Virus record (IMG/VR): IMGVR_UViG_3300025151_000004
Span: 1 to 55,851 of that record
Reading direction: 5' to 3' (one strand)
Source: a virus
Lineage: Duplodnaviria; Caudoviricetes
Length of the DNA: 55,851 nt
The position numbers and the translations under genes were made by a program. Positions 1-54,711 of the stretch are shown here, piece after piece. The notes beneath the pieces were generated by a model. It searched no databases and had not been told where the DNA came from. It saw only the letters and a list, made by a program, of their open reading frames with translations. Position 1 is the stretch's first letter; each line of letters begins with the position of its first letter.

Positions 1-41
1 AGAATCATTCGCATTGAGAATGCAACTAAGAATCATTCGCA
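1..41. repeat. 41-nt terminal direct repeat (left copy); probably circular assembly overlap
   Basis: 1-41 is identical to 55811-55851. Confidence 0.9.
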
Positions 42-101
42 ACCCATAGGTAAGGTCTCGCCCGGACACCGTGAGGCATCCGGGCTGACCCTTGGGTGAG
101 G

Positions 102-389
102 CTACTTGACGAAAGCGAGCTTGACTGGTGCGGCTTCCTTAGCCGGTGCCTTGGTTGGTCGGTCTTTCTTCGCAGTCACATGCTTGATCACGAGTTTCTG
201 CTGGTAGCCGATGGACACCCGTACATCGGTGCCTTTCGGCAACCCGATGATCTCGCCTTTGACGGCTCCCCGGATGTTGATCCACTTCCCATCCAGGATA
301 TCCCCTTTCTTGTACTTTTCTTCGAGGGGATCGCCTTCGATGAAACTATCCAGAGGAACATCCAAAACAATCTGCACATTCTTGGTCAT
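102..389 (-). CDS. hypothetical protein, Lys/Ala/Pro-rich C-terminus
   Basis: 95 aa ORF with GGAGGT RBS (complement of 396-401) upstream of ATG. Confidence 0.75.
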   Translation of the reverse strand: MTKNVQIVLDVPLDSFIEGDPLEEKYKKGDILDGKWINIRGAVKGEIIGLPKGTDVRVSIGYQQKLVIKHVTAKKDRPTKAPAKEAAPVKLAFVK

Positions 390-470
390 TGTTAGACCTC
401 CTGTTTCCCGGTCGCCTGATTACGTCCGGTCCGGCTAGTATACTCGATCCGGATCCACCTCCGAATGTTT

Positions 471-503
471 TTTTTGCATGGCTGGTATGCGTCAAATGCA
501 TGG
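471..503 (-). promoter_or_regulatory. 33-bp promoter/operator-like element (TTGACG plus GCAT..ATGC dyad), inverted copy of 55018-55050
   Basis: 30/33 identity to reverse complement of 55018-55050; faces gene 102-389. Confidence 0.6.
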
Positions 504-540
504 CTAATTCTCTTGACTGTGACATTTTTGCAACTACCTC

Positions 541-676
541 GTTCACCTTTTGTTCCTCTAGGTTTGTTCCCCATTTGTTCACCATTTGTTCCTCTAGGTT
601 TGTTCCCGGTTTGTTCCCGGTTTGTTCTCTTAGGTTTGTTCTCGGTTTGTTCTCTAGGTCTGTTCTTCCTTTGTTC
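541..676 (+). promoter_or_regulatory. left arm of LexA (alphaproteobacterial SOS box) array
   Basis: GTTC at 541,552,566,577,588,602,613,624,638,649,662,673; seven pairs have exact GTTC-N7-GTTC spacing. Confidence 0.7.
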
Positions 677-761
677 TTCTAGTATATATATATATAAATA
701 GAATACGGGCGTGCGGGCGGGCGAGGGCTAACGAATGAACATGCCAACGATACAATTCCCG

Positions 762-906
762 GAACAAAACGTGAACAAAACCAGAACAAAACGTGAACAA
801 ACCCGGAACAAACCATGAACAAGCTTATGAGAACATTACGTGAACAAATGATGAACAAGCTTATGGGAACAATCCGGGAACAAACAGGGAATATACCTAT
901 GAGAAC
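762..906 (+). promoter_or_regulatory. right arm of LexA box array (inverted relative to left arm)
   Basis: GAAC at 762,773,784,795,806,817,831,842,853,867,878,903; eight pairs have exact GAAC-N7-GAAC spacing. Confidence 0.7.
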
Positions 907-910
907 AAAC

Positions 911-951
911 AGGGGTCGCCCTGTGATGACTAGGGGTCGCCCTGTGATGAC
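911..951. repeat. tandem duplication of 20-bp AGGGGTCGCCCTGTGATGAC
   Basis: identical copies at 911-930 and 932-951. Confidence 0.9.
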
Positions 952-1230
952 CGGGAGAAAGCCGGAACAAGAGGGTTAACTCTTGGTTTATATAAATATC
1001 TTTCTAAGAGGAATTAAAACCCCCAATTCATCCCATAAAATCCCATTAAAACCCATGATCAAACACAGTCATAAAGTAAGTGATCACTTTACTTATCCAA
1101 AATTATAATAGGTTAATAAGAGGCAATACCCGTATAGGCCCAGAAATCGGCCAAAAAAGTTTCCGCTTGACTGTGACATTTCGGCCACACCGGGCCAAAA
1201 AACGGCGGAATCCTGCGGGTTTTTGCGGCG

Positions 1231-1259
1231 TTGACACCGGCGAGTTTTTGCGTCAGGGT
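1231..1259 (+). promoter_or_regulatory. putative early promoter
   Basis: TTGACA at 1231-1236 upstream of first + strand gene; -10 element is poor. Confidence 0.4.
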
Positions 1260-1304
1260 TGGATCAGTTCCGGTTCAACCCCTTGTACATATGGAGATTA
1301 GATC

Positions 1305-1535
1305 ATGGCAGCATATACGTATGTTAATGGCATTCGGATAACCTCCCTTTTTAACATCCAAAACAGGGAGGAAGGCTATTATGTACGGAAAGACGATACA
1401 GAAGTTTTTTGTACTGATTTCGACGAAGCATTGAAGTTAGCCAATATTATCGCTTTCCACAAAGACATGTTATATAAAGAACGTGAGAAAGCCTTTCTTA
1501 CCTCTGTCATTAGAAAAAGTGAGGAATCGTCATGA
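1305..1535 (+). CDS. hypothetical early protein
   Basis: GGAGA RBS, ATGA coupling to next gene. Confidence 0.75.
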   Translation: MAAYTYVNGIRITSLFNIQNREEGYYVRKDDTEVFCTDFDEALKLANIIAFHKDMLYKEREKAFLTSVIRKSEESS

Positions 1536-1774
1536 AATTTAGGATCATCTTTAATTGTGAATCATGTGATGGAACCGGGGAGGAAATAATTATAGGCGGC
1601 GACATAGATCAGAATGGTCCGTATATTGTTGAAGAGGTTCTCAAATGCAGGGAATGCGGCGGACATGGGGAGGGTGGCATGTATACAGTCACTGATCTCT
1701 ACGAGAATGTCGATGATGTGGAACGGGATTATCCCGAGTATAGAGCCATCATCCCTTTGGAGAATTCATTATGA
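1532..1774 (+). CDS. small zinc-finger protein (DnaJ-type CxxCxGxG pair)
   Basis: CESCDGTG and CRECGGHG motifs; GAGGA RBS. Confidence 0.75.
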   Translation: MKFRIIFNCESCDGTGEEIIIGGDIDQNGPYIVEEVLKCRECGGHGEGGMYTVTDLYENVDDVERDYPEYRAIIPLENSL

Positions 1775-2226
1775 CGGAGACATGGGTGAAAGAGTATATT
1801 GAAACGGTATCCGCAGCGCCTTATGACGAAGATGAGGCCAGTACATTTATCAATGATATGCACACCTACTATGAAGAGGAGAAGCCTATGAAAAACATGT
1901 ATTGGAAAACACAGATGAGCGTTGATAAACCTAAGACAAACACCATTCTGTCTATCATTATGCAAGACTGGCAAGGTTTAACCTACAAAACAGGTGAGCT
2001 TGTAGATGTTACGGTTACCGATATGGTAGAGCTATTGGGCGATCCTAATAGTAAGGATGACCCTGACAAGGTTAAAAACGGCTATTCATGGCGGCTCTTT
2101 GTTGATGAAAATCCTGTAGGAATATGGGATTGGAAGGGCTCGTCTGACCAAGATACTTGGTCGTTCTATGGCCATCCTGCTGATGTCGCCAAGTTATTCG
2201 GCGAAGATCATGTAAGGGCTAGATGA
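1771..2226 (+). CDS. hypothetical protein
   Basis: 151 aa, translationally coupled to upstream gene. Confidence 0.7.
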   Translation: MTETWVKEYIETVSAAPYDEDEASTFINDMHTYYEEEKPMKNMYWKTQMSVDKPKTNTILSIIMQDWQGLTYKTGELVDVTVTDMVELLGDPNSKDDPDKVKNGYSWRLFVDENPVGIWDWKGSSDQDTWSFYGHPADVAKLFGEDHVRAR

Positions 2227-2227
2227 G

Positions 2228-2377
2228 ATGGGGAGAGTAAAGGCTTGGCTAATGAGTATGGAAGATGATGCATGTGTGCTGACCCTAAAAGAATTTATAG
2301 AGAAATGGGGCAGGGCACACGCCACAATATGGTTTGAACAAAATGAAAAGATGGAGAATGAAAATGTCGTACATTGA
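2228..2377 (+). CDS. small hypothetical protein (MGRVKAWLMSMEDDA...), not in ORF track
   Basis: 49 aa ORF read manually, fills gap between neighbours. Confidence 0.6.
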   Translation: MGRVKAWLMSMEDDACVLTLKEFIEKWGRAHATIWFEQNEKMENENVVH

Positions 2378-3248
2378 TTTAGAATTTGAGCCTATTGAAA
2401 CCGAACTTTATACCTCAACCGGCGATGTCTGCCCTAATCACAAGGCACTCGTACATCCAAATGGCCATGTACTAGGCGTTGTCGGTCGGAGTTATAGGGT
2501 AATCTCCAATGAAGAACTTTTTGATAACATGTATCAAGCTATAGAGTCATCTATGAGTGACAAAGCTATTGCTACGATGGAAGTTATTGACAGCCAAGTT
2601 AGGAATTACGCCAAGACTTATAGAGAAATCCGATTTCCTGAAATCTCTAGGTCTATCGAAACGAGGACACACAAGACAGATGTGGGTTTCCGCATCATCG
2701 AGGAGAACTCATTTGATGGTTCAGGATCAGTCAGGGTTCTGCTAGGTTCGATAGACTACCATTGCACTAACGGAATGATCCATGGCCAGTATGATGTGTT
2801 TAAGAAAACCCACAAGGGGCACGCCCCTATTCCGAGTTTCGAAGGTATCTTCGTAAAGGCCCTAGAACAATATACGGACAAGATGGACTTATACCAGAAG
2901 TGGGCGTCTAAGTCTCTTACTGACTCCGCTGTCCATAACTTTGTATCAACTTTATTCCCGACGACGAAAAAGAATAGCAATGATCCGAAGTTTATCACCA
3001 CTAAACCTTACTCGCTTATGGGTGATAATTTAATCAGGCAATACGAAAACGAGACATTTGTCCGGGGCAACAATGTTTGGGCAATGTATTCGGCCATGAC
3101 ATTCTACGCATCTCATGACAGTGAGATTTTCCCGCTTAACAAGATGTCCAAAGATCAGGACAACGACCAAGAACGATTGTCTCGACGTAGCGACAAGGTT
3201 ACTTCTTGGCTAAACTCAGACGCATGGTCTGAACTAATCGCAGCGTGA
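2364..3248 (+). CDS. DUF932/DUF945-family phage protein
   Basis: LGVVG..Y..I.N, NSFDGSGS and CTNGMI motifs; start moved to ATG 2364 after GGAGA RBS. Confidence 0.75.
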   Translation: MSYIDLEFEPIETELYTSTGDVCPNHKALVHPNGHVLGVVGRSYRVISNEELFDNMYQAIESSMSDKAIATMEVIDSQVRNYAKTYREIRFPEISRSIETRTHKTDVGFRIIEENSFDGSGSVRVLLGSIDYHCTNGMIHGQYDVFKKTHKGHAPIPSFEGIFVKALEQYTDKMDLYQKWASKSLTDSAVHNFVSTLFPTTKKNSNDPKFITTKPYSLMGDNLIRQYENETFVRGNNVWAMYSAMTFYASHDSEIFPLNKMSKDQDNDQERLSRRSDKVTSWLNSDAWSELIAA

Positions 3249-3256
3249 CAATCAAT

Positions 3257-3284
3257 GGGGTTCCGGATTATATTCTGGAACCCC
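3257..3284 (+). other. intergenic GC-rich hairpin, same family as 55397-55753 copies
   Basis: GGGGTTCCGGA-TTATAT-TCTGGAACCCC. Confidence 0.7.
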
Positions 3285-3305
3285 GTCTTTCATGGAGAAA
3301 AACGA

Positions 3306-3383
3306 ATGACTTTTCTAGATATCTGGATGCTTGTTGTGGCTCTAAGCTTTGCTTTCTTTGTCATTTATATAGCTGGAAGCTAA
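3306..3383 (+). CDS. 25-aa hydrophobic membrane micropeptide (MTFLDIWMLVVALSFAFFVIYIAGS)
   Basis: GGAG RBS at 3294; one TM segment; not in ORF track. Confidence 0.6.
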   Translation: MTFLDIWMLVVALSFAFFVIYIAGS

Positions 3384-3398
3384 TAAAGGATAAGACAG

Positions 3399-4040
3399 AT
3401 GACAACTCTGAAACTACTCAAAGAGAATATAGGCTCTGATCTAGGCAAGCCTAGTAAAATGCCGGGTTATTCATGGGGTATCTCTGCTGATCTATGTATA
3501 ACTGGCGGCACATTGATCAAACTAGAGGGATCAGTGTGTGAGAACTGTTATGCTATGAAGGGGAACTATAGATACCCAAGTGTAACTAAATCCCATGCGA
3601 ACAGGATTGCCGCATATAATAAAGATAATATTATCTGGCGGGAAGGCATGGTTGAGCTACTGCGTAAACGCATCCCCGATGATGCCCCTATTGTAGATAA
3701 GTACTTCCGTATCTTTGACGCCGGAGATATCCAAAGCGAACAGATGCTGATTGATTGGATATTTGTGGCCGAACAATTACCCGATATTAAATTTTGGCTA
3801 CCCACAAAAGAATATCGGATCATTCGTAAGTTCAAGGGCGATATCCCAGATAACTTAATCATCCGAGTATCAAGCCCGAATATAAATCAGGAGCCGTTAA
3901 ACTTTGCCCATACTTCCACGGTCCATGAGGAATCCCCATTTGGATTTGAGTGTGAGGCATATACCCGAGACCATAAGTGTGGATCATGTCGTGCCTGTTG
4001 GAATAAAGAAATTCCGAACGTGAGTTATCCAGAACAGTAA
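3399..4040 (+). CDS. Gp88-like Cys-rich phage protein
   Basis: SKMPGYSW, C..C..CYA, FRIFDAGD, WLPTKE, CGSCRACW motifs. Confidence 0.7.
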   Translation: MTTLKLLKENIGSDLGKPSKMPGYSWGISADLCITGGTLIKLEGSVCENCYAMKGNYRYPSVTKSHANRIAAYNKDNIIWREGMVELLRKRIPDDAPIVDKYFRIFDAGDIQSEQMLIDWIFVAEQLPDIKFWLPTKEYRIIRKFKGDIPDNLIIRVSSPNINQEPLNFAHTSTVHEESPFGFECEAYTRDHKCGSCRACWNKEIPNVSYPEQ

Positions 4041-4137
4041 ACAGGGAAGGGCATGGGGTAGCCTCTAAGCACATGAGTGCTACCCCCATAGCCCAGAGAC
4101 CCTAAAACGCACCCACGATCAAATTTGAGGGGTTACC

Positions 4138-4536
4138 GTGGCTTTCTATCTTTTAGACACCAATCAAACCCATGTTATTACCGAAAAGCTAATCAATGTG
4201 GCCGAACATAGGTCAGCTAGGATTAAATCATCAAGACATGCCGCCGCCGTAACACGAAGGGGCGTCATCATATCGACCGGATGGAATAAACTTAAGTCAC
4301 ACCCTATGCAGGCAAGGTTTGCATCAGATGCTGGTAAACCTGAGAAGATATTCCTGCACGCAGAGACGGACGCCATAATCAAAACCATAAATAAACACGG
4401 CCCAGAAATATTATCAGGGTGTGAGATGTATATTATTAGGCTTACAAAAAATGGACGGCTTGCTAAATCTAAGCCTTGCATTAGTTGCCTTGGTTTGCTA
4501 AATCATTTTCAGATCAATCATGTATATCATACTTGA
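4138..4536 (+). CDS. cytidine/dCMP deaminase-fold protein
   Basis: HAE and PCxxC zinc-binding motifs. Confidence 0.8.
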   Translation: MAFYLLDTNQTHVITEKLINVAEHRSARIKSSRHAAAVTRRGVIISTGWNKLKSHPMQARFASDAGKPEKIFLHAETDAIIKTINKHGPEILSGCEMYIIRLTKNGRLAKSKPCISCLGLLNHFQINHVYHT

Positions 4537-4571
4537 ACTAGCCAATGAACTAGCCAATGAAAAGGAAATAA

Positions 4572-5234
4572 ATGACTCTTAATAAACTCCCAATAGTAGG
4601 TCTTTCCCATATCGCCCATATGTATGGGAAGACACCAGAAGAAACCATCCTGTACTATGCCCGTGTATCCAACCCTAAGAATCAATCCAAGGATAATCCA
4701 AAGTTACTCACCTATCTAATCGAGAATGAACATTGGTCTCCATTTGAGATGGTCTCCATGTGTTTAGACATTGAGACAACACGGGACATAGCACGACAGA
4801 TACTCAGGCATAGATCATTCTCATTCCAAGAATTTTCACAAAGATATTCAGAAGTAGACTTGAACTGGAACAGGAGATCGGCCCGGTTACAAGACAAAGA
4901 GAATAGACAGAACTCCCATGAGTTAGACCCTGACCTCCATGAACATCGGACATTATCCCAAGAGTGGGAATGGAAACAGTTTGATGTGATAGAGGCATCA
5001 GAGAGGGCATATAGGTGGGCTCTTGAAAAAGGAATAGCAAAAGAGCAAGCCCGTGCCATCCTCCCTGAAGGACTAATATCAACCCGACTGTATATGCATG
5101 GGACAATCAGAAGCTGGATTCATTACACCGATCTGAGAACCAAACCTGAGACACAAAAAGAACACCGGGCTGTCGCCCTTGAATGTCAGAGAATTCTTTT
5201 TGAAGTTTGTCCTAGTTTAAACAAGGAGTACTAA
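4572..5234 (+). CDS. thyX: FAD-dependent thymidylate synthase
   Basis: HWSPFE and QILRHRSFSFQEFSQRY signature. Confidence 0.95.
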   Translation: MTLNKLPIVGLSHIAHMYGKTPEETILYYARVSNPKNQSKDNPKLLTYLIENEHWSPFEMVSMCLDIETTRDIARQILRHRSFSFQEFSQRYSEVDLNWNRRSARLQDKENRQNSHELDPDLHEHRTLSQEWEWKQFDVIEASERAYRWALEKGIAKEQARAILPEGLISTRLYMHGTIRSWIHYTDLRTKPETQKEHRAVALECQRILFEVCPSLNKEY

Positions 5235-5260
5235 GAGTGACTAAGAGTGACTAAGAGTGA
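5231..5260. repeat. 10-bp tandem repeat (CTAAGAGTGA)x3
   Basis: direct reading. Confidence 0.9.
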
Positions 5261-5349
5261 CTAGGAATAAACCAATAATAAACAAGGATTAGCTAAGTCT
5301 TAGCTAGAGTCCTAGGATATACCCTAGTACCTCCCGGCCTCCTGACCCC

Positions 5350-5420
5350 AACCTAGCACACCGAAACCCCGGTGTCAACCCCAGAATTTCCTTGACACCG
5401 GGGTGAGGTCGGGGTAGAAC
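5350..5420. promoter_or_regulatory. back-to-back sigma70-type promoters
   Basis: + strand TTGACA(5392)-17 nt-TAGAAC; - strand TTGACA(5378)-17 nt-TAGGTT; inverted repeat ACCCCGGTGTCAA/TTGACACCGGGGT. Confidence 0.6.
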
Positions 5421-5437
5421 CCCCAGACGAGACCAAT

Positions 5438-5514
5438 GGACGCTTAGCTCAGTTGGATAGAGCAACAGCCTTCTAAGCTGTGGGTCAGTGGTTCGAGTCC
5501 ACTAGCGTCCACCA
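5438..5514 (+). tRNA. tRNA-Arg (anticodon TCT)
   Basis: 77-nt cloverleaf, ACAGC-CT-TCT-AA-GCTGT anticodon arm, GGTTCGAGTCC T-arm, encoded CCA. Confidence 0.95.
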
Positions 5515-5562
5515 TATAATACAAACCATTACCGGAAGATTTCTGTAACTAAGGAGTATAAA

Positions 5563-5820
5563 ATGGAAAAAGTAAGAAGGACTGAATTAAAATATGACGA
5601 TGAGTTGGGGATAGACGTTACTATCCCTTACGAAACATGTGATTATATTGTATCTGAAACTATTAAAAGAAGTTTGAGAGATGAAATTTGGCTTAGAAAG
5701 AGGGGCTCAGCATATACCATGAAGAGACCAACATATACGGCCTTATTGCGTAGCCTTCAGTGGTACACCAATGATGTAGATTACAATCTGTTTAAAGCGG
5801 AGATCGAAGATGCAAGCTGA
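5563..5820 (+). CDS. hypothetical protein
   Basis: AAGGAG RBS, 85 aa. Confidence 0.75.
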   Translation: MEKVRRTELKYDDELGIDVTIPYETCDYIVSETIKRSLRDEIWLRKRGSAYTMKRPTYTALLRSLQWYTNDVDYNLFKAEIEDAS

Positions 5821-6067
5821 ATTAGACAGCTTAGAAAAAAACATCATGAAGACATGGACTATACTGGAGGATCTCCATTCTGTACTTGAAAACACAGATG
5901 AGAACGGAAACTATACTGGGCAGATAGCTAACACAACATCATCAACTCTTATCAAATCAATCGTGGTTCTATATGCGGTACATTTTGAAGACCTCTTTAA
6001 ATCATATGAGAAAATGGTTGATACTGTCAATTCTATTGAATGGACCCCGCCAACTGAAAAACACTGA
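5810..6067 (+). CDS. hypothetical protein
   Basis: GGAG RBS, overlaps upstream stop. Confidence 0.7.
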   Translation: MQAELDSLEKNIMKTWTILEDLHSVLENTDENGNYTGQIANTTSSTLIKSIVVLYAVHFEDLFKSYEKMVDTVNSIEWTPPTEKH

Positions 6068-6078
6068 GGATAGACAAC

Positions 6079-6849
6079 ATGTTAAAAGTGCTTGACTTAT
6101 TCAGTGGGATAGGAGGATTTAGTCTTGGACTCGAAAAAACAGGGGGCTTTAAAACCACCGCCTTCTGCGAAATCAACCAGTATGCCTGCGCAGTCTTGCG
6201 AAAGCACTGGCCCGATGTCCCCCTCTATGAAGACGTCAGAGAACTTACCTCTGACCGACTCAAAGCAGACGGAGTTACCGTTGATGTCATCTGCGGGGGA
6301 TTCCCCTGCCAAGACATCAGCACCGCAGGAAAAGGCGCAGGCCTTGCCGGAGAGCGAAGCGGGCTCTGGTCAGAAATCGCCCGTCTTGTTAGCGAACTAC
6401 GACCTAGATACGTCCTTGTGGAGAACGTCTCAGCGCTGCGTACTCGGGGGTTATCAAGAGTTCTCGGAGACCTTTCCGAGATCGGGTATGATGCAGAATG
6501 GCATTGCATACCAGCTTCCTACATTGGCGCACCGCACCAAAGGGACCGGATATGGATTATGGCCTACAGCAGCAGCACGGGACTGGAAGGATACACCGGG
6601 GATGGCGAGGACTGCGGTGAACCCGGACGGTTCGGTACGAAAGCGGGTGGACCAGTTAGCAAGGGCAGTCTACTCTGCGGAGGACTCCCAAAAGGGAGAT
6701 GGCCATCTGAACCCGACGTGGGTCGAGTGGCTCATGGGATACCCAACAGAGTGGACCGCCTTAAGTGCCTCGGAAATGCCCTCGTCCCGCAAATCCCCGA
6801 AATGATTGGACATGCAATAATCCACCAACTGGAACAGACTAATGCCTGA
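6079..6849 (+). CDS. DNA (cytosine-5) methyltransferase, main chain lacking motif IX
   Basis: DLFSGIGG (I), GFPCQD (IV), ENV (VI), QRDRIW (VIII), LGNALVP (X). Confidence 0.92.
   Translation: MLKVLDLFSGIGGFSLGLEKTGGFKTTAFCEINQYACAVLRKHWPDVPLYEDVRELTSDRLKADGVTVDVICGGFPCQDISTAGKGAGLAGERSGLWSEIARLVSELRPRYVLVENVSALRTRGLSRVLGDLSEIGYDAEWHCIPASYIGAPHQRDRIWIMAYSSSTGLEGYTGDGEDCGEPGRFGTKAGGPVSKGSLLCGGLPKGRWPSEPDVGRVAHGIPNRVDRLKCLGNALVPQIPEMIGHAIIHQLEQTNA
6125..6805 (+). CDS. overlapping-frame C5-MTase partner chain carrying motif IX
   Basis: 226-codon nested ORF in +1 frame ending HLNPTWVEWLMGYPTEWT; true start uncertain. Confidence 0.65.
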   Translation: MDSKKQGALKPPPSAKSTSMPAQSCESTGPMSPSMKTSENLPLTDSKQTELPLMSSAGDSPAKTSAPQEKAQALPESEAGSGQKSPVLLANYDLDTSLWRTSQRCVLGGYQEFSETFPRSGMMQNGIAYQLPTLAHRTKGTGYGLWPTAAARDWKDTPGMARTAVNPDGSVRKRVDQLARAVYSAEDSQKGDGHLNPTWVEWLMGYPTEWTALSASEMPSSRKSPK

Positions 6850-8566
6850 AGCTACATCATCTAGGTTTCTCAGACACACCTCATGTGAAGCATGTGGTAG
6901 CAGTGATGCTAATGCAGTGTACGAAGACACCTATTCTAATGGATCTCAGGCGAACAGAACATACTGTTTCTCCTGTGAAAAAACGGATATGAATATGAAC
7001 CTAGACAACACAAATACCTATACCCATACTTCCTCTCCCTCCTACTCCACAGCCAGTAATGGCAATGGTCATGGCGGAAGAAAGGAATTCTCCGATATAC
7101 CTGATCGTAAGATTACCAAGGACACAGCAAAAACTTTTGGTGTACTTGTATCCAAGGATACAAATGGTGAGATTACATCCCATGCCTATCCTTATTATGA
7201 CAAAGACGGGCAGGAGATTGTAGCCTACAAGAAACGCATTTGCCTTGATAACCAAGGTAATGCTCAAAAGAATTTCACCATCCTTAATAATACAAAAAAA
7301 GCTGGATCATCCTTTGATCAAGCTTCGCTCTTTGGTCAGAACCTCTTCCCGCCTAGAGGTAAATTCATCACGATCACAGAGGGTGAGCTAGACTGTCTTG
7401 CAACCTATCAAATGCTGGGTAGCAAATGGCCTGTGGTCTCTCTTCGAACCGGCGCACAGGGTGCAGAGAAGGATATCAGGAAGAACCTAGATTTCTTTAA
7501 TTCATATGAAAAGATTGTCCTCTGTCTTGACAATGATGAGCCCGGTAAAAAGTCGGCTCAGAAATTATCAGAGATCTTTGAGATCGGTAAGTGTCTTATC
7601 ATGCCGATGTCCCGCAAAGATCCCTGCGAATACCTACAGAACAATGACACCACCACGTTTACCCGTGAATGGTGGAGGGCTAAACCGGTATCACCCGATG
7701 GCATTATTTCCGGTGAAGATATCTGGGAACTTGTATCAACTGAGCCTGAGAATAACTCCATCTCCTATCCATGGGAAGATCTGAATAAACTAACCTACGG
7801 AATCAGGCGTGGTGAGCTTGTTACAATTACAGCAGGATCAGGGATTGGTAAGAGTGCCATCCTCAGAGAAGTGATCTACCACATAATTCGAAACACAGAA
7901 TCCCGTATTGGGGCGCTGTTCATGGAGGAGAGTGTACGACGAACAGCCCAAGGCATTATGTCGATTGATGCCAATAAGCAATTCCACCTACCTAATACCG
8001 TGTACACACAAGAAGAATTAAAATCATCTTTTGATAACACAGTAGGCTGCGGTCGAGTCTTTCTCTATGACCACTTCGGATCATCTGAGATTGATAACAT
8101 AGTTAACCGCATCCGGTATATGGCCAAGGGTCTGGAGTGTGAGTATATATTCTTAGATCATATCTCCATCGTGGTCTCCTCACAGGAAAATGGAGACGAG
8201 AGAAAAGCCCTTGACGAAATTATGACCAAGCTTAGAATGCTTGTGCAGGAAACAAACATCGGGCTCTTTGTGGTATCCCACCTGAAGCGTCCACAAAATG
8301 GAGGAGGTCATGAACTTGGAGGGGTTACTACCCTTGCACAGTTAAGGGGATCGGCGGGTATAGCCCAGCTATCAGATATTGTTCTGGGACTCGAACGTAA
8401 CTCACAGGATGATGATCCCACCATCCGAAACACAACCATCGTAAGGGTTCTAAAAAATAGATTCTCTGGTGAGACCGGACCTACATCACGACTACTCTGG
8501 AATAAAGAGACAGGCCGTCTCAATGAGACCTTTGAAGAACTCGAACAATTAGAGGAGACATTTTAA
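6842..8566 (+). CDS. T7 gp4-like DNA primase-helicase
   Basis: N-terminal Zn finger, TOPRIM (ITEGELD, LDND), Walker A AGSGIGKS, DHIS, LRGS, KNRFSG. Confidence 0.95.
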   Translation: MPEATSSRFLRHTSCEACGSSDANAVYEDTYSNGSQANRTYCFSCEKTDMNMNLDNTNTYTHTSSPSYSTASNGNGHGGRKEFSDIPDRKITKDTAKTFGVLVSKDTNGEITSHAYPYYDKDGQEIVAYKKRICLDNQGNAQKNFTILNNTKKAGSSFDQASLFGQNLFPPRGKFITITEGELDCLATYQMLGSKWPVVSLRTGAQGAEKDIRKNLDFFNSYEKIVLCLDNDEPGKKSAQKLSEIFEIGKCLIMPMSRKDPCEYLQNNDTTTFTREWWRAKPVSPDGIISGEDIWELVSTEPENNSISYPWEDLNKLTYGIRRGELVTITAGSGIGKSAILREVIYHIIRNTESRIGALFMEESVRRTAQGIMSIDANKQFHLPNTVYTQEELKSSFDNTVGCGRVFLYDHFGSSEIDNIVNRIRYMAKGLECEYIFLDHISIVVSSQENGDERKALDEIMTKLRMLVQETNIGLFVVSHLKRPQNGGGHELGGVTTLAQLRGSAGIAQLSDIVLGLERNSQDDDPTIRNTTIVRVLKNRFSGETGPTSRLLWNKETGRLNETFEELEQLEETF

Positions 8567-8568
8567 AA

Positions 8569-9585
8569 ATGGTACAGGTAAATAAGAAAGCAATTGTAAC
8601 CGGAGTGCGTGGCCAAGATGGGTACTATCTAACAGAATTACTCCTTAAAAAAGGATACATAGTTACAGGGGTAACCAGAAGACGGAGCGATAAAACAGAA
8701 CCCCTCAGTCATGAGATGAAATACTTCCCTCATTATAAAGAGGTAGAAGGAGACATCTGTGATCCATCATTTATAATGAGCCTACTACAAGTTACAAAAC
8801 CAGATGAGTTCTATAATCTCGCTGCCCAATCCCATGTTGGTCATTCATTCAAATGTCCTGATACAACCTTCGAGACAAACGCTACAGCAGTCTTGAATAT
8901 ACTTGAAGCGATTAGACTAACATCGCCTATGACTAAATTTTATCAGGCGTCAACATCTGAAATGTACGGTACAGTAAAGGAAGGGATAGCGACTGAGCTA
9001 ACCCCGCTAAAGCCCTTCTCACCCTATGGTGTAGCCAAGACAGCAGCACATAATCTTGTGTCAGTTTATAGAGATTCCTATGATATCTGGGCTTGTTCTG
9101 GAATCCTCTTCAATCATGAGAGTGAGCGAAGGGGTCATGATTTTGTAACCAGAAAAATTACATCTTGGATTGCCTCAAATATTTCTAAGATTGAAACAGA
9201 CCATCTTGACACGAAGCTCTTGCTTGGTAATATCAATTCAGTGAGGGATTGGGGATACGCCCCTGATTATGTTTATGGGATGTGGCTCATGCTTCAAGCC
9301 CAATCCCCCGATGATTATGTTTTGGCAACTGGGGAAACATACTCTATTAAAGATTTATTAAACGTGGCCTTTAATTATATCGGCGTCACTGATTGGACCC
9401 CATATGTAAAGCACAGCACTCCAGAAAACATACGACCAAAGGATGTGACTAGATTATGTGGATCACCTCGAAAGGCAAAGGAGTTACTCAATTGGGAACC
9501 GAAGGTTTCATTTCGGGAAATGATAGGAAGGATGATAGACCATGACATTGCCCAATTCAATAAGCCGCCACATACTAGACATTGA
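8569..9585 (+). CDS. gmd: GDP-mannose 4,6-dehydratase
   Basis: TGVRGQDG, YNLAAQSHV, YQASTSE, SPYGVAK, GILFNHES, FVTRKI, RDWGYA. Confidence 0.93.
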   Translation: MVQVNKKAIVTGVRGQDGYYLTELLLKKGYIVTGVTRRRSDKTEPLSHEMKYFPHYKEVEGDICDPSFIMSLLQVTKPDEFYNLAAQSHVGHSFKCPDTTFETNATAVLNILEAIRLTSPMTKFYQASTSEMYGTVKEGIATELTPLKPFSPYGVAKTAAHNLVSVYRDSYDIWACSGILFNHESERRGHDFVTRKITSWIASNISKIETDHLDTKLLLGNINSVRDWGYAPDYVYGMWLMLQAQSPDDYVLATGETYSIKDLLNVAFNYIGVTDWTPYVKHSTPENIRPKDVTRLCGSPRKAKELLNWEPKVSFREMIGRMIDHDIAQFNKPPHTRH

Positions 9586-11245
9586 AACTGACAGTCTTAA
9601 CCCTTCTAAAATATATTGCATCATAACAAAGAAGATAATTGAATGCCCCTATAATAATCAGATTACCTTTGATGATCATGAAGTATATACTTTTGAAGGG
9701 TCTCTTCAGCACCCATCCTTAAACGACTTCAGGAAAAAATATCGTTATGATTCTGAAACTATTTTTGTAGGTCATAACTTAATAGCGTTTGATATGCCTG
9801 TGATTAATAAACTTTTAAGGATGGATATTAAACTATCACAGATTGAAGACACCCTTCTCCTGTCACAGTTAGCTGAGCCCAGACGTGAAGGGGGACACTC
9901 CCTTAAAAACTGGGGCAACATTCTTAACTCAGAAAAGATTATGTTCAATGATTTTGAATCGGGCCTTTCTGAAAAGATGCTGACCTATTGTAAGCAAGAC
10001 GTAGACCTGACGGGTAAAGTCTGGATGGCCCTTCAGAATAAAGAAATCCCGGAAAATGTTATCGAGACAGAGAAGAAAGTAAGACACATTATACATGAGC
10101 AGGAAAGGAATGGGTTCTGCCTTGACATGCCAAAGGTCATGGAGTTTTCATCTTATCTTAACGATAATGTAGGTAAGATAGAGAAAGAACTTCAGGATAT
10201 ATTCGAGCCGACTACGATTCATCTGAAGACGAAGACTAAAGTTATCCCCTTCAATCCGGGTTCACGCCACCAGATTGCTGACAGACTCATCTCCCAATTT
10301 GGATGGGAACCTCAGAAGTTTACCCCCACCGGTAAGCCAATGGTTGATGAGAAAATTCTTCAGGAGATAAATTCTTTTGAGTCTTTAAAGTTGGTTGAAT
10401 ACCTCACCCTACAAAAAAGACATGCTCAGGTTCTTTCGTGGATAAAGGCCGTTGATAGTGACAACACTGTACATGGACGTGTACACACGCTTGGGACTGT
10501 TACAGGTAGGATGACCCATTCAAATCCAAACATGGCACAGGTGCCCTCTGTACGTGCACCCTATGGCAAGGAATGTAGAGAGGTATGGGTGCCACGTAAT
10601 ACATCGGAGAATGTGCTATTCGGCTGTGATGCAAAGTCCCTCGAACTAAGATGCCTAGCCCATTATATGGATGATGCTGATTTTACAAATGAAGTTATCT
10701 ATGGTGATATCCATACCTTCAATCAGCAGAAAGCTAAGCTCAAGACACGAGATCAGGCAAAGACTTTTATCTATGCCTTAATCTACGGGGCAGGTCCTGC
10801 CAAGATAGGCACCATCGTTGGTGGTGGTGTTAATGAGGGGAAGCAGCTTATAGATAATTTTATGACTTCAATGCCTAAGCTTCAACGGTTGAAGCAACGT
10901 GTTGACAGGGTTGTTCAGACAAGGTTTATACCCGGTATCGACGGTCGTAAAGTTCCAGTTGAGTATCCACATACTGGGCTTAACTATCTTCTCCAAGGGG
11001 CCGGGGCTATTATCTGCAAGCACTGGCTGATACAGATGTACGACCTTGCCCATGATCAATCTATTAGGGCCTTCCCTGTTGCTAACATTCATGACGAAAT
11101 GCAGTGGGAAGTTAATAAAAAAGATGTTGACAAACTAACGGAGGTAGCGCATAAAGCAATCAGTAACGTGAAAAGTATTTTAGAGTTTCGTTGTGATTTG
11201 GGTTGTGATGTGAAGACTGGAAAAAATTGGGCTGAGACTCATTGA
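9542..11245 (+). CDS. polA: family A DNA polymerase with 3'-5' exonuclease (T7-like)
   Basis: DIET exo I, DAKSLELR motif A, AKTFIYALIYG motif B (Tyr at the 762-equivalent), IHDE motif C. Confidence 0.95.
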   Translation: MTLPNSISRHILDIETDSLNPSKIYCIITKKIIECPYNNQITFDDHEVYTFEGSLQHPSLNDFRKKYRYDSETIFVGHNLIAFDMPVINKLLRMDIKLSQIEDTLLLSQLAEPRREGGHSLKNWGNILNSEKIMFNDFESGLSEKMLTYCKQDVDLTGKVWMALQNKEIPENVIETEKKVRHIIHEQERNGFCLDMPKVMEFSSYLNDNVGKIEKELQDIFEPTTIHLKTKTKVIPFNPGSRHQIADRLISQFGWEPQKFTPTGKPMVDEKILQEINSFESLKLVEYLTLQKRHAQVLSWIKAVDSDNTVHGRVHTLGTVTGRMTHSNPNMAQVPSVRAPYGKECREVWVPRNTSENVLFGCDAKSLELRCLAHYMDDADFTNEVIYGDIHTFNQQKAKLKTRDQAKTFIYALIYGAGPAKIGTIVGGGVNEGKQLIDNFMTSMPKLQRLKQRVDRVVQTRFIPGIDGRKVPVEYPHTGLNYLLQGAGAIICKHWLIQMYDLAHDQSIRAFPVANIHDEMQWEVNKKDVDKLTEVAHKAISNVKSILEFRCDLGCDVKTGKNWAETH

Positions 11246-11313
11246 TATCCAACTCGACACGCCTATATCCAAATCCTGACAAATATACACACATACACAT
11301 GAGGAAATAAAGA

Positions 11314-11829: not shown

Positions 11830-11842
11830 TCGGAGAGAGTAG

Positions 11843-12685: not shown

Positions 12686-13115
12686 GGAACAGGGTGATCC
12701 AGACCCAGACTGGTATTTTGGATTTTTGTATTTAATCTATAATAAAAAGAATGGTAGAAAATATATAGGGAAGAAACAATACAAAAGATACTCGAAGGGT
12801 AAACCAATTGGGCACACTGATTGGAAATCGTACACAGGTTCTTCTAAATATCTAAACCAAGATATTAACAAGATGGGCCTCAGTAATTTTAAATTTGTTA
12901 TGATCCGTCAATTTGAAACACGGGGTGGCCTTACATACTATGAGGCGAATGCCCAACATAAAATGGATGTGATGACATCTCGGATTGACGGCCTTGAAGA
13001 AAGAGAGTATTACAACGCTAACATCATGGGGATAAAGTTTGTTACTAAAGAAGTAGTCCCCAACATCAATCAACTACTAGAGGAAATTATAAATGTCTAC
13101 TGCAACACAGATTAA
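12639..13115 (+). CDS. GIY-YIG family endonuclease
   Basis: GFLYLI..KYIGKK, Y.GSS, YYNANI; start uncertain (frame is open from 12444). Confidence 0.75.
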   Translation: MAKLAGTQTPWVIHSKEQGDPDPDWYFGFLYLIYNKKNGRKYIGKKQYKRYSKGKPIGHTDWKSYTGSSKYLNQDINKMGLSNFKFVMIRQFETRGGLTYYEANAQHKMDVMTSRIDGLEEREYYNANIMGIKFVTKEVVPNINQLLEEIINVYCNTD

Positions 13116-51570: not shown

Positions 51571-53097
51571 TTAAGCTGCTACTGAATTCCAGTAAGTCTT
51601 TTTACTTTTAGTATAAAACTTGTTATCAGTGTCTTGATTATAGGACGAATCATACGGATGTTCAAGTCTCCAAGATTCACGCATGTAGTGTATGGCCATA
51701 ACCATGGCATCTACTTGGTCATCATGGGCTGCATTCGGGAATGATGTGGATTCTAAAATGAGACTCTCACTCCATGGTTTCTCTTTTGGTAACCAGATTC
51801 TCCCGCTTTCCACAAGGGGTGACACGGCATTCACCCGGCTCACCTTGTCCCTGTCCGGGGTGTATTCCCTGATTGGCAGACCTGCCCTCCTCATGTCTTG
51901 GATGAGGCTCTGTCCTGATGCTTTCTTTTCAATGATGACAACATCAGGTGAATGTTCTTCATACATTTCTTGGGCCATCATCCTGAGTTCTGGGTATTCA
52001 AATTTACCCACGATATTACTCAGGAGAATGAGGTTACCGACGATATGCTCCTCCCCTGCGGAATCAACCTCCATGGTGGCAAAGATTCCCCATGTCTGGA
52101 TCACAGAATTATCTGCTGTACTCCGGGTGGAGAACGCAGTATCAAGGGTCTGTATGACAAAATCACAATCGGGTGGTTCATCATGATCCCATTCGATAAA
52201 CCAGTCTTTCTTCAGGATGCCGCCCTCGGCAGGTACCGGGTTCTGCATATACAGGGATTCCCAATATCTGGCCCCGTTATACTTCTTGATTTCAATCTCG
52301 TCTTTCTTTAAGACTTCGGTAGGTTTCCACTCTGGGAAATAGGATGAACCGACAGGGAGATTCAAGATGGAGGAGGATTCCTCATCAATCCATGCGGGGA
52401 TCTTGAGAACATTCCAGTCATCCTCCTCGGAATTTCTGAGGAGCCACCCGCAGATATCATCCTCGTGATACCGGGTGTTGATGATGATAATCCCCCCATT
52501 AGGCATAATTCTGGTCCTCAGACCAGCCGGATACCACTCCTTGATATACCTCCGGCCTGCCTCTGAGAAAGCATCTTCTTCAGACATGACATCATCAAGG
52601 ATGGCCACATGGGCACCACGACCGGCAATCTGGGATCTCACACCGGCTGCTACATAGACACCGCCCTGCTTTGTCTCCCATTTACCCGCAGCCCGGACAT
52701 CCTTTCTGAGGGAGACATTTGGGAAGACAACCGAGAATAATTCATTATTGACAATATCCCTGACTGACCGACCAAAGTCCGTGGCAAGCTGATCCGAGTG
52801 GGAGACACAAAGAATCTGGTTGGACGGGTGTAGACCCATGTGCCATGCCGGAAATATCTTGGAGCAGAGGAGTGACTTGGATGAACGAGGTGGGAGGAAG
52901 ACCATCTGTCTCTTGATCTCCCCCTCTGATACTTTCTGGAGGGTGTCACAGATAACCTCGATATGCCTCCCGACTACAAAGTCAGGGACAAGGATTGGGG
53001 CTATAGCCTTGGTAAACGTATAGAAATCACTCCGTGATTGAGACACCATCTTCTCAAGGAGTGCCTCCCTTAGTTTTTCTTTTTCATTTGTGGACAT
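51571..53097 (-). CDS. terL: terminase large subunit
   Basis: PPRSSKS Walker A, ILDD Walker B, TRYHEDD, LDTA, HDDQVDA nuclease motif. Confidence 0.93.
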   Translation of the reverse strand: MSTNEKEKLREALLEKMVSQSRSDFYTFTKAIAPILVPDFVVGRHIEVICDTLQKVSEGEIKRQMVFLPPRSSKSLLCSKIFPAWHMGLHPSNQILCVSHSDQLATDFGRSVRDIVNNELFSVVFPNVSLRKDVRAAGKWETKQGGVYVAAGVRSQIAGRGAHVAILDDVMSEEDAFSEAGRRYIKEWYPAGLRTRIMPNGGIIIINTRYHEDDICGWLLRNSEEDDWNVLKIPAWIDEESSSILNLPVGSSYFPEWKPTEVLKKDEIEIKKYNGARYWESLYMQNPVPAEGGILKKDWFIEWDHDEPPDCDFVIQTLDTAFSTRSTADNSVIQTWGIFATMEVDSAGEEHIVGNLILLSNIVGKFEYPELRMMAQEMYEEHSPDVVIIEKKASGQSLIQDMRRAGLPIREYTPDRDKVSRVNAVSPLVESGRIWLPKEKPWSESLILESTSFPNAAHDDQVDAMVMAIHYMRESWRLEHPYDSSYNQDTDNKFYTKSKKTYWNSVAA

Positions 53098-53663: not shown

Positions 53664-54575
53664 CTATGTTTTTCCACCATTGACAACTTTAAGCCCCACA
53701 ACATTTGCAAGCTTATCAATGTCACCATCAATATCATCGGTCTTCATCCCGTCAAGACTTCCAATGCGTTGCTCTGTTCTTTCAACGTACATACCAAGAT
53801 GCTTGGCAATATTCTCCATGCTCCGGGTTGCATTCGTGAAATCTTGTTCCGCAAGGGAATTCTTGTAGATCTCATCAAATCTGTCTAGTACTTTCTCAGC
53901 ATCCCATGCCATTTTTTCTTTTGCCTCATCTATAAGTTCAAGGATTCGTCTACTTATATGCGGGCGATCCTTCCAGACTGCCGCATGGTTTTCCCACCTT
54001 GGATAACTAATATCATACCCTGCCCGTATCCAAGCTTCAAGAGGATCCGCCGTGGAGACAAACTCAATACAATACTTCTCCTCACGCATGGTGAGTCCGT
54101 TGGATAGCTTGGTCCTTACCGGGTCTGAGTAGGAACCATCCTTGTTAAGCTTCGGCTTCCGGGGTTCAGTAAGGATATTATTCTTATTGGGACCGCCAGT
54201 ATAACCGGGTGATCTTGGATTGAACGTCTGATTCATGAGTTTATCATCATGTCGTTTGATATCCCGTTTAGTCTTTGGACCAAGTGGGGTAAAAGTTTGT
54301 GGGTATTTCTCTGAGACAGTTGTACCACCATGGCCCATCCGATAGTAGTATTCTTTCCTCAGTCTGCCAAGGAGACGGGGACAGTGACCCTTTGGATCAC
54401 TCGGATGCCCATGCATGGTCTGGGAGATATACTTGATTAAATCCCGGATTTCTTGCGTGGTTAAAGACTTGAATTCAAGCTGGAGTGGCCTGCTGTCTGG
54501 ATCAACGGCTACCTTGGCCCTACCCTTGGGGGTCTTACGCTTATTATTTATCGGACTTGTTGTTTCGGAGGTCAT
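53664..54575 (-). CDS. terS: terminase small subunit with long basic N-terminal extension
   Basis: LT.REEKYC.EF...EAWIRAGY HTH and E.IAKHLGM in C-half; start taken at ATG 54575. Confidence 0.65.
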   Translation of the reverse strand: MTSETTSPINNKRKTPKGRAKVAVDPDSRPLQLEFKSLTTQEIRDLIKYISQTMHGHPSDPKGHCPRLLGRLRKEYYYRMGHGGTTVSEKYPQTFTPLGPKTKRDIKRHDDKLMNQTFNPRSPGYTGGPNKNNILTEPRKPKLNKDGSYSDPVRTKLSNGLTMREEKYCIEFVSTADPLEAWIRAGYDISYPRWENHAAVWKDRPHISRRILELIDEAKEKMAWDAEKVLDRFDEIYKNSLAEQDFTNATRSMENIAKHLGMYVERTEQRIGSLDGMKTDDIDGDIDKLANVVGLKVVNGGKT

Positions 54576-54711
54576 TGAATAAATCAAATAATGTCTTTAC
54601 TTTTTCTTTCAAGATATCAATCTCGGAATGCATCTTTGCAAGAACAATCACAAGGGTTATGAAAGACAACCCTACAGGCCACAATGTTCCAATGTATTCC
54701 AAAAGCTCCAT
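54544..54711 (-). CDS. 55-aa membrane protein (MELLEYIGTLWPVGLSFITLVIVLAKM...), not in ORF track
   Basis: GGGAGG RBS, TM segment then coiled coil. Confidence 0.65.
   Translation of the reverse strand: MELLEYIGTLWPVGLSFITLVIVLAKMHSEIDILKEKVKTLFDLFNDLRNNKSDK

What the first reader, a model, noticed from the sequence alone, without database searches (positions are those of the whole stretch)
541..906. Non-coding array of 15 perfect alphaproteobacterial LexA (SOS) boxes in two inverted arms
Seen: 12 GTTC tetramers (541-676) and 12 GAAC tetramers (762-906) spaced almost only 11 or 14 bp apart, with variable spacers, mirrored around an (AT)n tract at ~683-700; 7+8 pairs match GTTC-N7-GTTC/GAAC-N7-GAAC exactly. 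Known: that is the LexA operator of Alphaproteobacteria, normally present in one to a few copies per promoter. Inference: conserved half-sites and phasing with drifting spacers indicate selection for protein binding. In a phage with no recognisable integrase or repressor this could be a DNA decoy that titrates LexA as the genome replicates (RecA-independent SOS induction, division arrest), or a LexA-gated switch/origin controlling the divergent early genes.
Basis: partly seen in the sequence, partly recalled or inferred. Interest (0 to 1): 0.9.

Follow-up and report, generated by a model that had tools for sequence, protein, structure and literature searches.

The report
Phased heptamer array beside phage terminase
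A marine phage carries about 24 copies of a 7-base word, one per DNA turn, in two mirrored arms; it is probably a docking site for the phage's own DNA-handling proteins, although it also reads as a string of perfect SOS-repressor sites.

Summary
There are 12 GTTC (541-673) and 12 GAAC (762-903), spaced 11 or 14 bp. All 15 GTTC-N7-GTTC matches of the 55.8-kb genome lie here, against 1.74 expected.

The conserved unit is the heptamer TTTGTTC. It forms two inward-pointing arms around a (TA)7 tract and a GC block.

Contigs of four sequencing runs bridge the array unchanged. Relatives keep the heptamer, the phase and usually both arms, while copy number and centre vary.

Against a LexA purpose:
- A related lineage, HTVC027P-like with a homologous small terminase, has the same architecture built from a different word, GTGTCG.
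- Such arrays sit 0.1-1.8 kb from terS in about a dozen lineages.

For a LexA purpose:
- GAACAAA-N4-GAACAAA is enriched in Alphaproteobacteria only (30 matches against 0 control).
- The closest cultured relatives infect Alphaproteobacteria.
- The same 11-mer lies beside two unrelated TerS families.

Odds:
- Cis-acting protein-assembly site, most likely packaging initiation: 0.38.
- Replication origin: 0.25.
- Deliberate LexA co-option: 0.15.

Host, binder and genome ends are untested.

The parts
541..679 (+). Left arm: 12 copies of (T)TTGTTC reading towards the centre. Steps are 11 bp with 14-bp jumps, and there is a 36-bp higher-order unit.
680..761 (.). Centre: (TA)7 at 683-696 (AT-only to 700), a GC-rich block at 706-728, and one stray GAACA at 737. 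(TA)n length varies between runs.
762..909 (-). Right arm: 12 copies of GAACA(A)(A) on the + strand, which is TTTGTTC on the - strand reading towards the centre, plus a degenerate copy at 889.
965..971 (-). Outlying single GAACAAG copy.
911..951 (+). Two exact 20-bp tandem repeats, each holding a short hairpin. The close relative L300 has four copies.
512..534 (+). Promoter-like element CTTGACTGTGACATTTTTGCAAC abutting the left arm. A second copy lies at 1166-1188. Related GTGACA..TGCAAC elements flank arrays in L014, L063, L109, L113 and L300.
   Evidence: function inferred
465..503 (-). Promoter-like element with TTGACG inside a small palindrome, facing ORF95. A copy at 55018-55056 (+) faces the small + strand genes.
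   Evidence: function inferred
102..389 (-). ORF95, a 95-aa protein of no known family with a lysine/alanine/proline-rich tail. It lies next to the array in the window, L107/L129 and L006.
53664..54587 (-). Small terminase gene. The Terminase_2 / phrog_51 domain covers residues 160-278 and there is a long basic N-terminal extension. Its start lies about 1.76 kb from the left arm across the record junction.
51571..53097 (-). Large terminase gene.
1..41 (+). 41-bp assembly overlap, equal to 55811-55851. It holds the copies of AGAATCATTCGCA, whose core is the palindrome GAATCATTC.
6842..8566 (+). T7 gp4-like primase-helicase, in the replication module downstream of the array.

Best explanation
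The array is a cis-acting assembly site for an oligomeric DNA-binding protein. It offers one TTTGTTC word per helical turn, in two arms that face each other across an easily distorted centre. It sits at the junction between the packaging module and the early/replication module.

My preferred mechanism is packaging initiation, a pac-type site. Rings of the small terminase, or a terminase-associated factor, would load on each arm, one DNA-binding domain per 11-bp step. That would bend or wrap about 140 bp per arm and present the centre to the large terminase.

Shown:
- the anatomy of the array;
- its conservation in relatives;
- its linkage to terS;
- the same architecture with a different word in phages that have a homologous terS.

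Inferred:
- the identity of the binder;
- the wrapping;
- cutting in the centre.

On this reading the match to LexA boxes is a by-product of a GTTC-containing word repeated every 11 bp. An alphaproteobacterial LexA would probably still bind it.
For: Word and phase are what is conserved.
- TTTGTTC and the 11-bp step persist in L107/L129 (12+11 to 13+12 TTGTTC-type copies), L300 (11+6), L006 (one arm, about 15), L035 (7 plus about 9), L071 (3 plus about 14) and L109/L113.
- Spacers, centre and copy number change between them.

The same architecture occurs with another word.
- 18 of 30 loci fetched through the GP88 neighbour carry GTGTCG x5, a centre of about 95 bp, then CGACAC x4-5.
- These arrays lie about 0.5 kb from a Terminase_2 terS.
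- One HMM unites that terS with the window's TerS.
- That terS is 71% identical in DNA to the terS of Pelagibacter phage HTVC027P.

The replication modules of the two array families differ while TerS is shared.
- The window has a T7-like primase-helicase. HTVC027P has an AEP primase and a UvrD-type helicase.

Arrays track terS.
- Distances to a Terminase_2-type terS are about 110-140 bp (L071), 170 (L113), 200 (L109), 320-480 (L050), 790 (L107) and 1.76-1.77 kb (window, L006).
- In 5 Sf6-type lineages the array lies 70-230 bp downstream of terS.
- Among 149 ORFs within 2.5 kb of arrays in 41 viral loci, the commonest Pfam families were Terminase_6N (11), Terminase_6C (8) and Sf6_terminase (6).

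Geometry fits.
- Adjacent helix-turn-helix motifs on small-terminase rings lie about one DNA turn apart, and a wrap of about 100 bp has been proposed (PMC4737164, passages read).

No initiator was found.
- No Rep, HTH or RHH protein appeared among the early genes scanned.
Against: - The same 11-mer (GAACAAA, then a variable base, then CGT or similar) lies beside two TerS families with no detectable homology (hhalign probability 0.06%). That is hard to reconcile with TerS reading the word.
- No robust covariation between TerS helix-3 residues and the word was found.
- In the window terS is 1.76 kb away, with ORF95 and three small genes between.
- In the lineages with about 60% TerL identity (L013, L070, L017, L090, L014) no terS was detected between array and terL.
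- The SF6/SPP1 small-terminase DNA-binding domain was reported to bind pac DNA without preference for its repeats (PMC4737164).
- No raw reads were available, so no ends or cut sites are known.
- Cultured HTVC027P has no array.
- Terminase neighbours may partly reflect that large non-coding regions of phages often precede the packaging genes. I ran no random-position control.
Confidence: 0.38

Rival explanations
1. Origin of bidirectional replication. Phased iterons in two opposed arms would load an initiator or the T7-like primase-helicase on either side of the (TA)7 unwinding element.
For: - Iterons stand next to an AT-only tract in the window, L300, L006 and L035.
- L006 has one arm plus an AT-rich stretch, the classical layout.
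- The array heads the early module that carries ThyX, primase-helicase and PolA in the window. L044 and L023 also combine an array with these genes on one contig.
- Cumulative GC skew is lowest at the record ends and highest near 22 kb.
Against: - No initiator gene was recognised.
- The skew switch coincides with the switch of gene strand, so it is confounded.
- L071 and L109/L113 have arms that abut with no AT-rich centre.
- In Sf6-type lineages the array lies between terS and terL.
- The GTGTCG lineage shares the architecture but has an unrelated replication module.
Confidence: 0.25
2. Deliberate co-option of host LexA. About 24 consensus alphaproteobacterial half-sites would hold LexA on the phage control region. 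This would work either as an SOS-gated deferment switch or as a sponge that lowers free LexA as the genome replicates.
For: - There are 15 exact boxes.
- GAACAAA-N4-GAACAAA occurs in 23 of 100 sampled alphaproteobacterial genomes (30 matches, 0 control). In Bacteroidia and Gammaproteobacteria it is at background.
- Three or four phased copies stand in promoter-like DNA of 6 alphaproteobacterial genomes. One is directly before a splB-like radical-SAM gene (my reading of the translation; no family search was run on it), and splB is a gene listed among SOS genes in PMC8565304.
- ORFs flanking 20 such sites include 2 Y-family polymerases and 1 S24 peptidase.
- The best cultured relatives infect SAR11 and Roseobacter.
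- The identical 11-mer in lineages with unrelated TerS fits a shared host factor.
- The left arm starts 4-7 bp after a promoter-like element.
- Phages that exploit LexA, and virulent phi29 that uses many Spo0A sites, are precedents (PMC9437464, passages read).
Against: - The host is unknown.
- The cultured alphaproteobacterial phages checked have no array: 5 whole records plus a 41-kb part of HTVC027P.
- The two-arm architecture recurs with GTGTCG, for which I found no host-operator signal.
- Linkage to terS and the inverted arms are not explained.
- 14-bp steps break the N7 register.
- In true lexA promoters only 1 of 14 half-sites has TTT before GTTC, whereas the array keeps it almost invariably.
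- The array was flagged because it matched a known motif, so a chance match is not negligible.
- TTTGTTC triplets at this phase also occur in many other phyla.
Confidence: 0.15
3. Operator or centromere-like array for another regulator. This could be a phage protein or a host winged-helix response regulator that binds 11-bp direct repeats. It would silence the divergent promoters or serve partition in a carrier state.
For: - The array lies between divergent transcription units and abuts promoter-like elements.
- 11-bp direct repeats are the usual register of OmpR/PhoB-type regulators and of ParR-parC. This is recalled, not tested.
- A second repeated motif (GTGACA..TGCAAC) and the GAATCATTC palindromes show that other factors act in the same region.
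Against: - No ParA, ParM, ParR, HTH or RHH gene was found.
- In the GTGTCG lineage the array lies inside a run of same-strand genes, not between divergent promoters.
- 24 sites is far more than known operators use.
Confidence: 0.1

Closest known systems
pac regions built of repeats around a cut site (SPP1/SF6 pacL-pacC-pacR; P1 pac as recalled)
   Same: Sets of direct repeats lie on both sides of a central region, next to terS. The proposal is that DNA wraps round a small-terminase ring whose DNA-binding motifs are about one turn apart (PMC4737164, passages read).
   Different: The window has 12+12 near-identical heptamers in strict register, far more than the few boxes of SPP1. It lies 1.76 kb from terS. 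Cutting is not shown. The SF6 DNA-binding domain showed no preference for its repeats.
Alphaproteobacterial LexA operator (GTTC-N7-GTTC)
   Same: There are exact matches (15). The longer half-site GAACAAA is the form enriched in alphaproteobacterial genomes.
   Different: Chromosomal operators have 2-4 half-sites at a promoter. Here there are 24-25 in two inverted arms. The host and LexA binding are untested.
Iteron origins and opposed arrays of initiator sites (E. coli oriC low-affinity DnaA arrays at 11-bp register, recalled)
   Same: Two oppositely oriented arrays stand at one site per turn beside an AT-rich element.
   Different: No initiator gene was found. The AT-rich centre is missing in some relatives. 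The word is not a DnaA box.
T7 short-repeat array next to the terminal repeat
   Same: In T7 the heptamer CCTAAAG occurs 11 times in the first 700 bases (the hexamer CTAAAG starts at 18, 42, 61, 176-333). Steps are mostly 13 bp (with 24-26 and one 54) just inside the left end. It is a phased heptamer array at a packaging-relevant site in a phage with a related replisome.
   Different: The T7 copies are all in one orientation. No CTTTAG was found at either end. The period is 13 bp, not 11. The physical ends of the window phage are unknown.
Host-regulator co-option by phages (GIL01 and others with LexA; phi29 with Spo0A)
   Same: Phage DNA carries binding sites for a host master regulator that gates the lytic cycle (PMC9437464, passages read).
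   Different: Those phages use a few promoter-proximal sites. An array of two dozen has not turned up in my searches.

Membership tests
Alphaproteobacterial LexA operator | Direct repeat GTTC-N7-GTTC | tested here: met
   15 exact matches, all within 541-881; 1.74 expected.
Alphaproteobacterial LexA operator | Host is an alphaproteobacterium that has LexA | tested here: inconclusive
   The best cultured relatives infect SAR11 and Roseobacter, at only 31-47% identity. Ralstonia, cyanobacterial and other phages are also among the hits. No direct host link.
Alphaproteobacterial LexA operator | One to a few boxes overlapping the promoter of a regulated gene | tested here: not met
   24-25 half-sites in two inverted arms. 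Chromosomal examples have 2-4. Only the first left-arm copies abut a promoter-like element.
Alphaproteobacterial LexA operator | Binding by LexA and release on RecA-stimulated cleavage | not testable with these tools
   Needs gel-shift or reporter assays.
pac site recognised with the small terminase | Lies in or near terS | tested here: met
   1.76 kb in the window. 0.07-0.8 kb in L107, L109, L113, L071, L050, the GTGTCG lineage and 5 Sf6-type lineages.
pac site recognised with the small terminase | Site specificity follows the TerS DNA-binding domain | tested here: inconclusive
   For: a homologous TerS with a diverged sequence goes with a different word. Against: the same word stands beside an unrelated TerS family, and there is no clear residue signature.
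pac site recognised with the small terminase | Packaging series starts here (cut site, permuted ends) | not testable with these tools
   Only assembled contigs of the runs were served.
Iteron-type replication origin | Phased direct repeats next to an AT-rich unwinding element | tested here: met
   (TA)7 at 683-696 between the arms. Absent in L071 and L109/L113.
Iteron-type replication origin | Cognate initiator gene nearby | tested here: not met
   No Rep or initiator family in Pfam, PHROGs or NCBIfam scans of the early genes.
ParR-parC type centromere | Partition ATPase or actin-like gene and an adaptor gene beside the repeats | tested here: not met
   None among the ORFs scanned.
Array of T7-type primase recognition sites | The word equals the recognition site of the phage's own primase | tested here: not met
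   GTGTC fits the T7 rule (G/T)2GTC (abstract of PMC12839067). But the HTVC027P-type primase is an AEP, unrelated to T7's, and TTTGTTC does not fit the rule.

The most novel reading that the evidence does not exclude
A virulent marine phage, and several unrelated uncultured phages, carry arrays of up to two dozen consensus alphaproteobacterial LexA half-sites. Host LexA would coat the phage control and packaging junction. The phage would thereby read the host's DNA-damage state, giving an SOS-gated deferment of the lytic programme. Alternatively, as the genome multiplies, the array would soak up LexA and switch on the SOS response without RecA.
Probability: 0.15. Interest if true: 0.85.

Novelty: new variant of a known kind. 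Interest (0 to 1): 0.55.

Why it matters
Phased word arrays of this size turn out to be a recurrent feature of uncultured marine phages. I found them beside terS in about a dozen lineages, with at least two different words.

If they are packaging sites, they give a sequence-defined pac for phages that cannot yet be grown. They would also be a clean natural substrate for testing the idea that DNA wraps round the small-terminase ring.

If they are origins, they mark where T7-like replisomes start in these phages.

If LexA is the intended partner, this would be the first multi-site host-repressor array in a virulent phage. It would also be a new way for ocean viruses to sense sunlight-driven DNA damage in their hosts.

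Either way, the word GAACAAA-N4-GAACAAA is a sharper search term for alphaproteobacterial SOS operators than GTTC-N7-GTTC.

Tried and rejected
Searches and tools that gave nothing:
- BLAST of the array against 50,697 cultured phage records found no match.
- Megablast of window 1-20000 found only tRNA matches.
- ESM Atlas gave nothing usable for ORF95 or ORF 1771-2226.
- PDB sequence search with GP88 gave 0 hits.
- Paper searches for the words with 'iteron' or 'origin', for LexA decoys and for LexA with roseophages found nothing on such arrays. Supplements are closed and might hold motif tables.

Candidates dropped:
- GP88 as the binder. It has 7 invariant cysteines and conserved acidic motifs and looks like an enzyme.
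- A His-Ala versus Arg-Ala signature in TerS helix 3 as covariation. It is not robust once L071 is added.
- Primase-site arrays. The HTVC027P primase is AEP type.

Uninformative or unsuitable controls:
- GTGTCG pairs in alphaproteobacterial genomes. They are common in GC-rich coding DNA and near absent in small genomes.
- Pfam around TTGTTC arrays in 36 bacterial loci (119 ORFs) gave SRP54, ParA-like, ThyA and others, and no terminase. This is not a proper control for the viral result.

Read data:
- Only assembled contigs were served, so no molecule ends can be seen.
- The higher depth of contig 12-1499 against downstream is explained by a strain branch at 1470-1514, not by a terminal repeat.

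Not done:
- DNA curvature was not computed. The GTGTCG arrays lack A-tracts, so shape alone is not the common factor.
- Structure prediction, complex prediction and the large protein searches were not used.

Full report
WHAT THE WINDOW IS

The window is a complete IMG/VR virus record of 55,851 bases. Its first 41 bases repeat at its end, which is an assembly overlap.

Genes on the + strand from 1305 to 20840 form an early, nucleotide-metabolism and replication block. It holds DUF932, GP88, dCMP deaminase, ThyX, a C5 methylase, a T7 gp4-like primase-helicase, GDP-mannose dehydratase, PolA, an RNR-like protein and MazG.

Genes on the - strand from 54587 down to 21658 are the packaging and virion block. 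It holds TerS, TerL, an SU10-type portal with a lysozyme-like tail, and a capsid protein.

No integrase, repressor, RNA polymerase or replication initiator turned up among the roughly 50 ORFs scanned.

The array lies in the 0.9-kb non-coding gap between ORF95 (102-389, - strand) and the first early gene (1305). Counted across the record junction, it is about 1.76 kb upstream of terS.

The 25-bp step hides a degenerate copy at 889.

All 15 GTTC-N7-GTTC matches of the genome are inside the array. Shuffles gave a mean of 1.74 and a maximum of 5.

TTTGTTC is exact in 10 of 12 left copies. The three T before GTTC carry 1.6-2.0 bits, and a C two bases after the word is moderately kept.

There is a 36-bp higher-order unit (11+11+14), so the array grows by block duplication.

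The arms point towards a centre made of (TA)7 and a GC-rich block.

No other phased array of this kind exists in the genome.

Contigs from 4 of 4 runs laid bridge the whole array with no difference, apart from one extra TA in one run. Two of these runs may be the source sample.

RELATIVES

Many are unrelated, and some are T-rich low-complexity DNA.

Contigs that share genes with the window carry the same structure:
- L107/L129/L072, with 76% primase-helicase identity, have about 13+13 copies around a different centre.
- L300, with 85% DUF932 identity, has 11+6 copies.
- L006 has one arm of about 15 copies plus an AT-rich stretch.
- The more distant L035 has 7 plus about 9 at strict 11-bp steps.
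The word and the phase are what selection keeps. Spacers, centre and copy number drift.

A SECOND WORD WITH THE SAME ARCHITECTURE

I fetched 30 loci through the GP88 neighbour. Of these, 18 carry GTGTCG x5, a centre of about 95 bp, and CGACAC x4-5.

These arrays lie about 0.5 kb from a Terminase_2 terS. That terS is united with the window's TerS by one HMM. It is 71% identical in DNA to the terS of Pelagibacter phage HTVC027P.

Between the two array families, BLAST found only GP88 in common within the flanks held. GP88 has 7 invariant cysteines and looks like an enzyme.

Their replication modules differ. The window has a T7-like gp4. HTVC027P has an AEP primase and a UvrD-type helicase.

So the two-arm design goes with the packaging genes, not with the replisome. 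It also does not need a GTTC word.

LINKAGE TO terS

TTGTTC arrays lie close to a Terminase_2-type terS in several lineages:
- about 110-140 bp in L071;
- 170 bp in L113;
- 200 bp in L109;
- 320-480 bp in L050;
- 790 bp in L107;
- 1.76-1.77 kb in the window and L006.

In five lineages with an Sf6-type terS the array lies 70-230 bp downstream of terS. In L058 it sits between terS and terL.

Among 149 ORFs within 2.5 kb of arrays in 41 viral loci, terminase families were the commonest Pfam hits: Terminase_6N 11, Terminase_6C 8, Sf6_terminase 6 and Terminase_2 2. I ran no random-position control.

The awkward fact is that the two TerS families are unrelated by profile comparison (probability 0.06%). 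Yet both sit beside the same 11-mer. That fits a shared reader other than TerS, possibly a host protein.

THE LexA QUESTION, FOR AND AGAINST

Upstream of lexA in 5 of 5 alphaproteobacterial genomes I found 7 boxes, 1-2 per promoter. TTT precedes only 1 of 14 half-sites.

The longer pair GAACAAA-N4-GAACAAA is nevertheless clearly an alphaproteobacterial element:

| Class sampled | Genomes with a match | Matches | Reversed control |
|---|---|---|---|
| Alphaproteobacteria | 23 of 100 | 30 | 0 |
| Bacteroidia | 5 of 50 | 7 | 6 |
| Gammaproteobacteria | 3 of 50 | 4 | 2 |

The centre genomes, which I chose because they had the pattern, are left out of these counts.

Six alphaproteobacterial genomes hold 3-4 phased copies in promoter-like DNA. 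One stands directly before what I read from its translation as a splB-like radical-SAM gene (no family search was run on it). Two stand before a 28-aa hydrophobic ORF.

I scanned 29 ORFs flanking 20 further sites. Among them were 2 Y-family polymerases and 1 S24 peptidase.

So an alphaproteobacterial LexA would very probably bind the array. The nearest cultured phages do infect Alphaproteobacteria, though at only 31-47% identity and alongside Ralstonia and cyanophage hits.

Against design for LexA:
- the GTGTCG twin;
- the linkage to terS;
- the inverted arms;
- the 14-bp breaks in register;
- the absence of arrays in the cultured alphaproteobacterial phages checked, 5 whole records and a 41-kb part of HTVC027P;
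- the occurrence of TTTGTTC triplets in many phyla;
- the fact that this array was picked out because it matched a known motif.

WEIGHING

I put a cis-acting assembly site for the phage's own DNA transactions first. Within that, packaging initiation gets 0.38 and a replication origin 0.25. The reason is that the architecture follows a homologous TerS across lineages whose replication genes differ, and it sits inside the terS-terL pair in others.

The geometry suits a small-terminase ring, with DNA-binding motifs about one turn apart and a wrap of about 100 bp (PMC4737164).

Deliberate LexA co-option keeps 0.15, and another regulator or a centromere-like role 0.10.

What is shown is the anatomy, the conservation, the neighbours and the motif statistics. 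The binder, any cutting or melting, and the host are inferred or unknown.

Noticed in passing
window 1-41 and 55790-55851; also L006:5290-5350, L072:355-385, L090:~7845, centre of L284:6040-6060: The 13-mer AGAATCATTCGCA, with palindromic core GAATCATTC, stands twice within the 41-bp overlap (1-13, 29-41 = 55811-55851) and once more just before it near 55798. Similar AGAAT..ATTCT palindromes recur near arrays in relatives and inside the centre of the GTGTCG arrays. It may be the site of a second, dimeric factor.
   Followed up: partly
window 512-534 and 1166-1188; 465-503(-) and 55018-55056(+): There are two pairs of duplicated promoter-like elements. To my recollection, untested, both resemble the Caulobacter-type housekeeping promoter layout, which would fit an alphaproteobacterial host.
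   Followed up: no
window 911-951: An exact 20-bp tandem repeat (AGGGGTCGCCCTGTGATGAC x2) lies just outside the right arm. The close relative L300 has four copies.
   Followed up: no
window 55390-55760: Three small + strand ORFs (75, 38 and about 30 aa) are each followed by a near-identical GC-rich hairpin. They are missing in relative L107/L129.
   Followed up: no
window 48320-51547: The SU10-type portal protein is fused to a C-terminal Pesticin/lysozyme-like domain (1075 aa).
   Followed up: no
window 3399-4040 and alignment A1: The GP88-family protein has 7 invariant cysteines and conserved D-G-D and P-T-x-E motifs, so it looks like a metal- or cluster-binding enzyme. It is the only protein BLAST found shared between the TTTGTTC and GTGTCG array families within the flanks held.
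   Followed up: partly
window 1470-1514: Contigs of several runs branch here, and the depth of 12-1499 is about 1.4-1.75 times that downstream. Co-occurring strains seem to share the array region but differ in the first early genes.
   Followed up: partly
L162:998-1026 and L176:6196-6224 (alphaproteobacterial genomes): Three phased GAACAAA copies lie right after a TTGACA and before a conserved 28-aa hydrophobic ORF next to a lolD-like gene. This looks like an SOS-controlled small membrane peptide.
   Followed up: no
L070:5300-6650 and L013:160-1510: About 1.3 kb between the array and terL has no convincing ORF in any frame.
   Followed up: no
L130:2910-2994 and L127:3430-3545: Relatives with 71-76% primase-helicase identity carry another tandem array, with words AGCTA/AAGAC in 8 copies at about 11-bp steps, near ThyX. 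It is absent from the window.
   Followed up: no
G106 (the genome of locus L148): One Flavobacterium genome has 7 GAACAAA-N4-GAACAAA matches at 6 places and no reversed control. Its class as a whole is at background, so this may be a lineage-specific regulator site.
   Followed up: no
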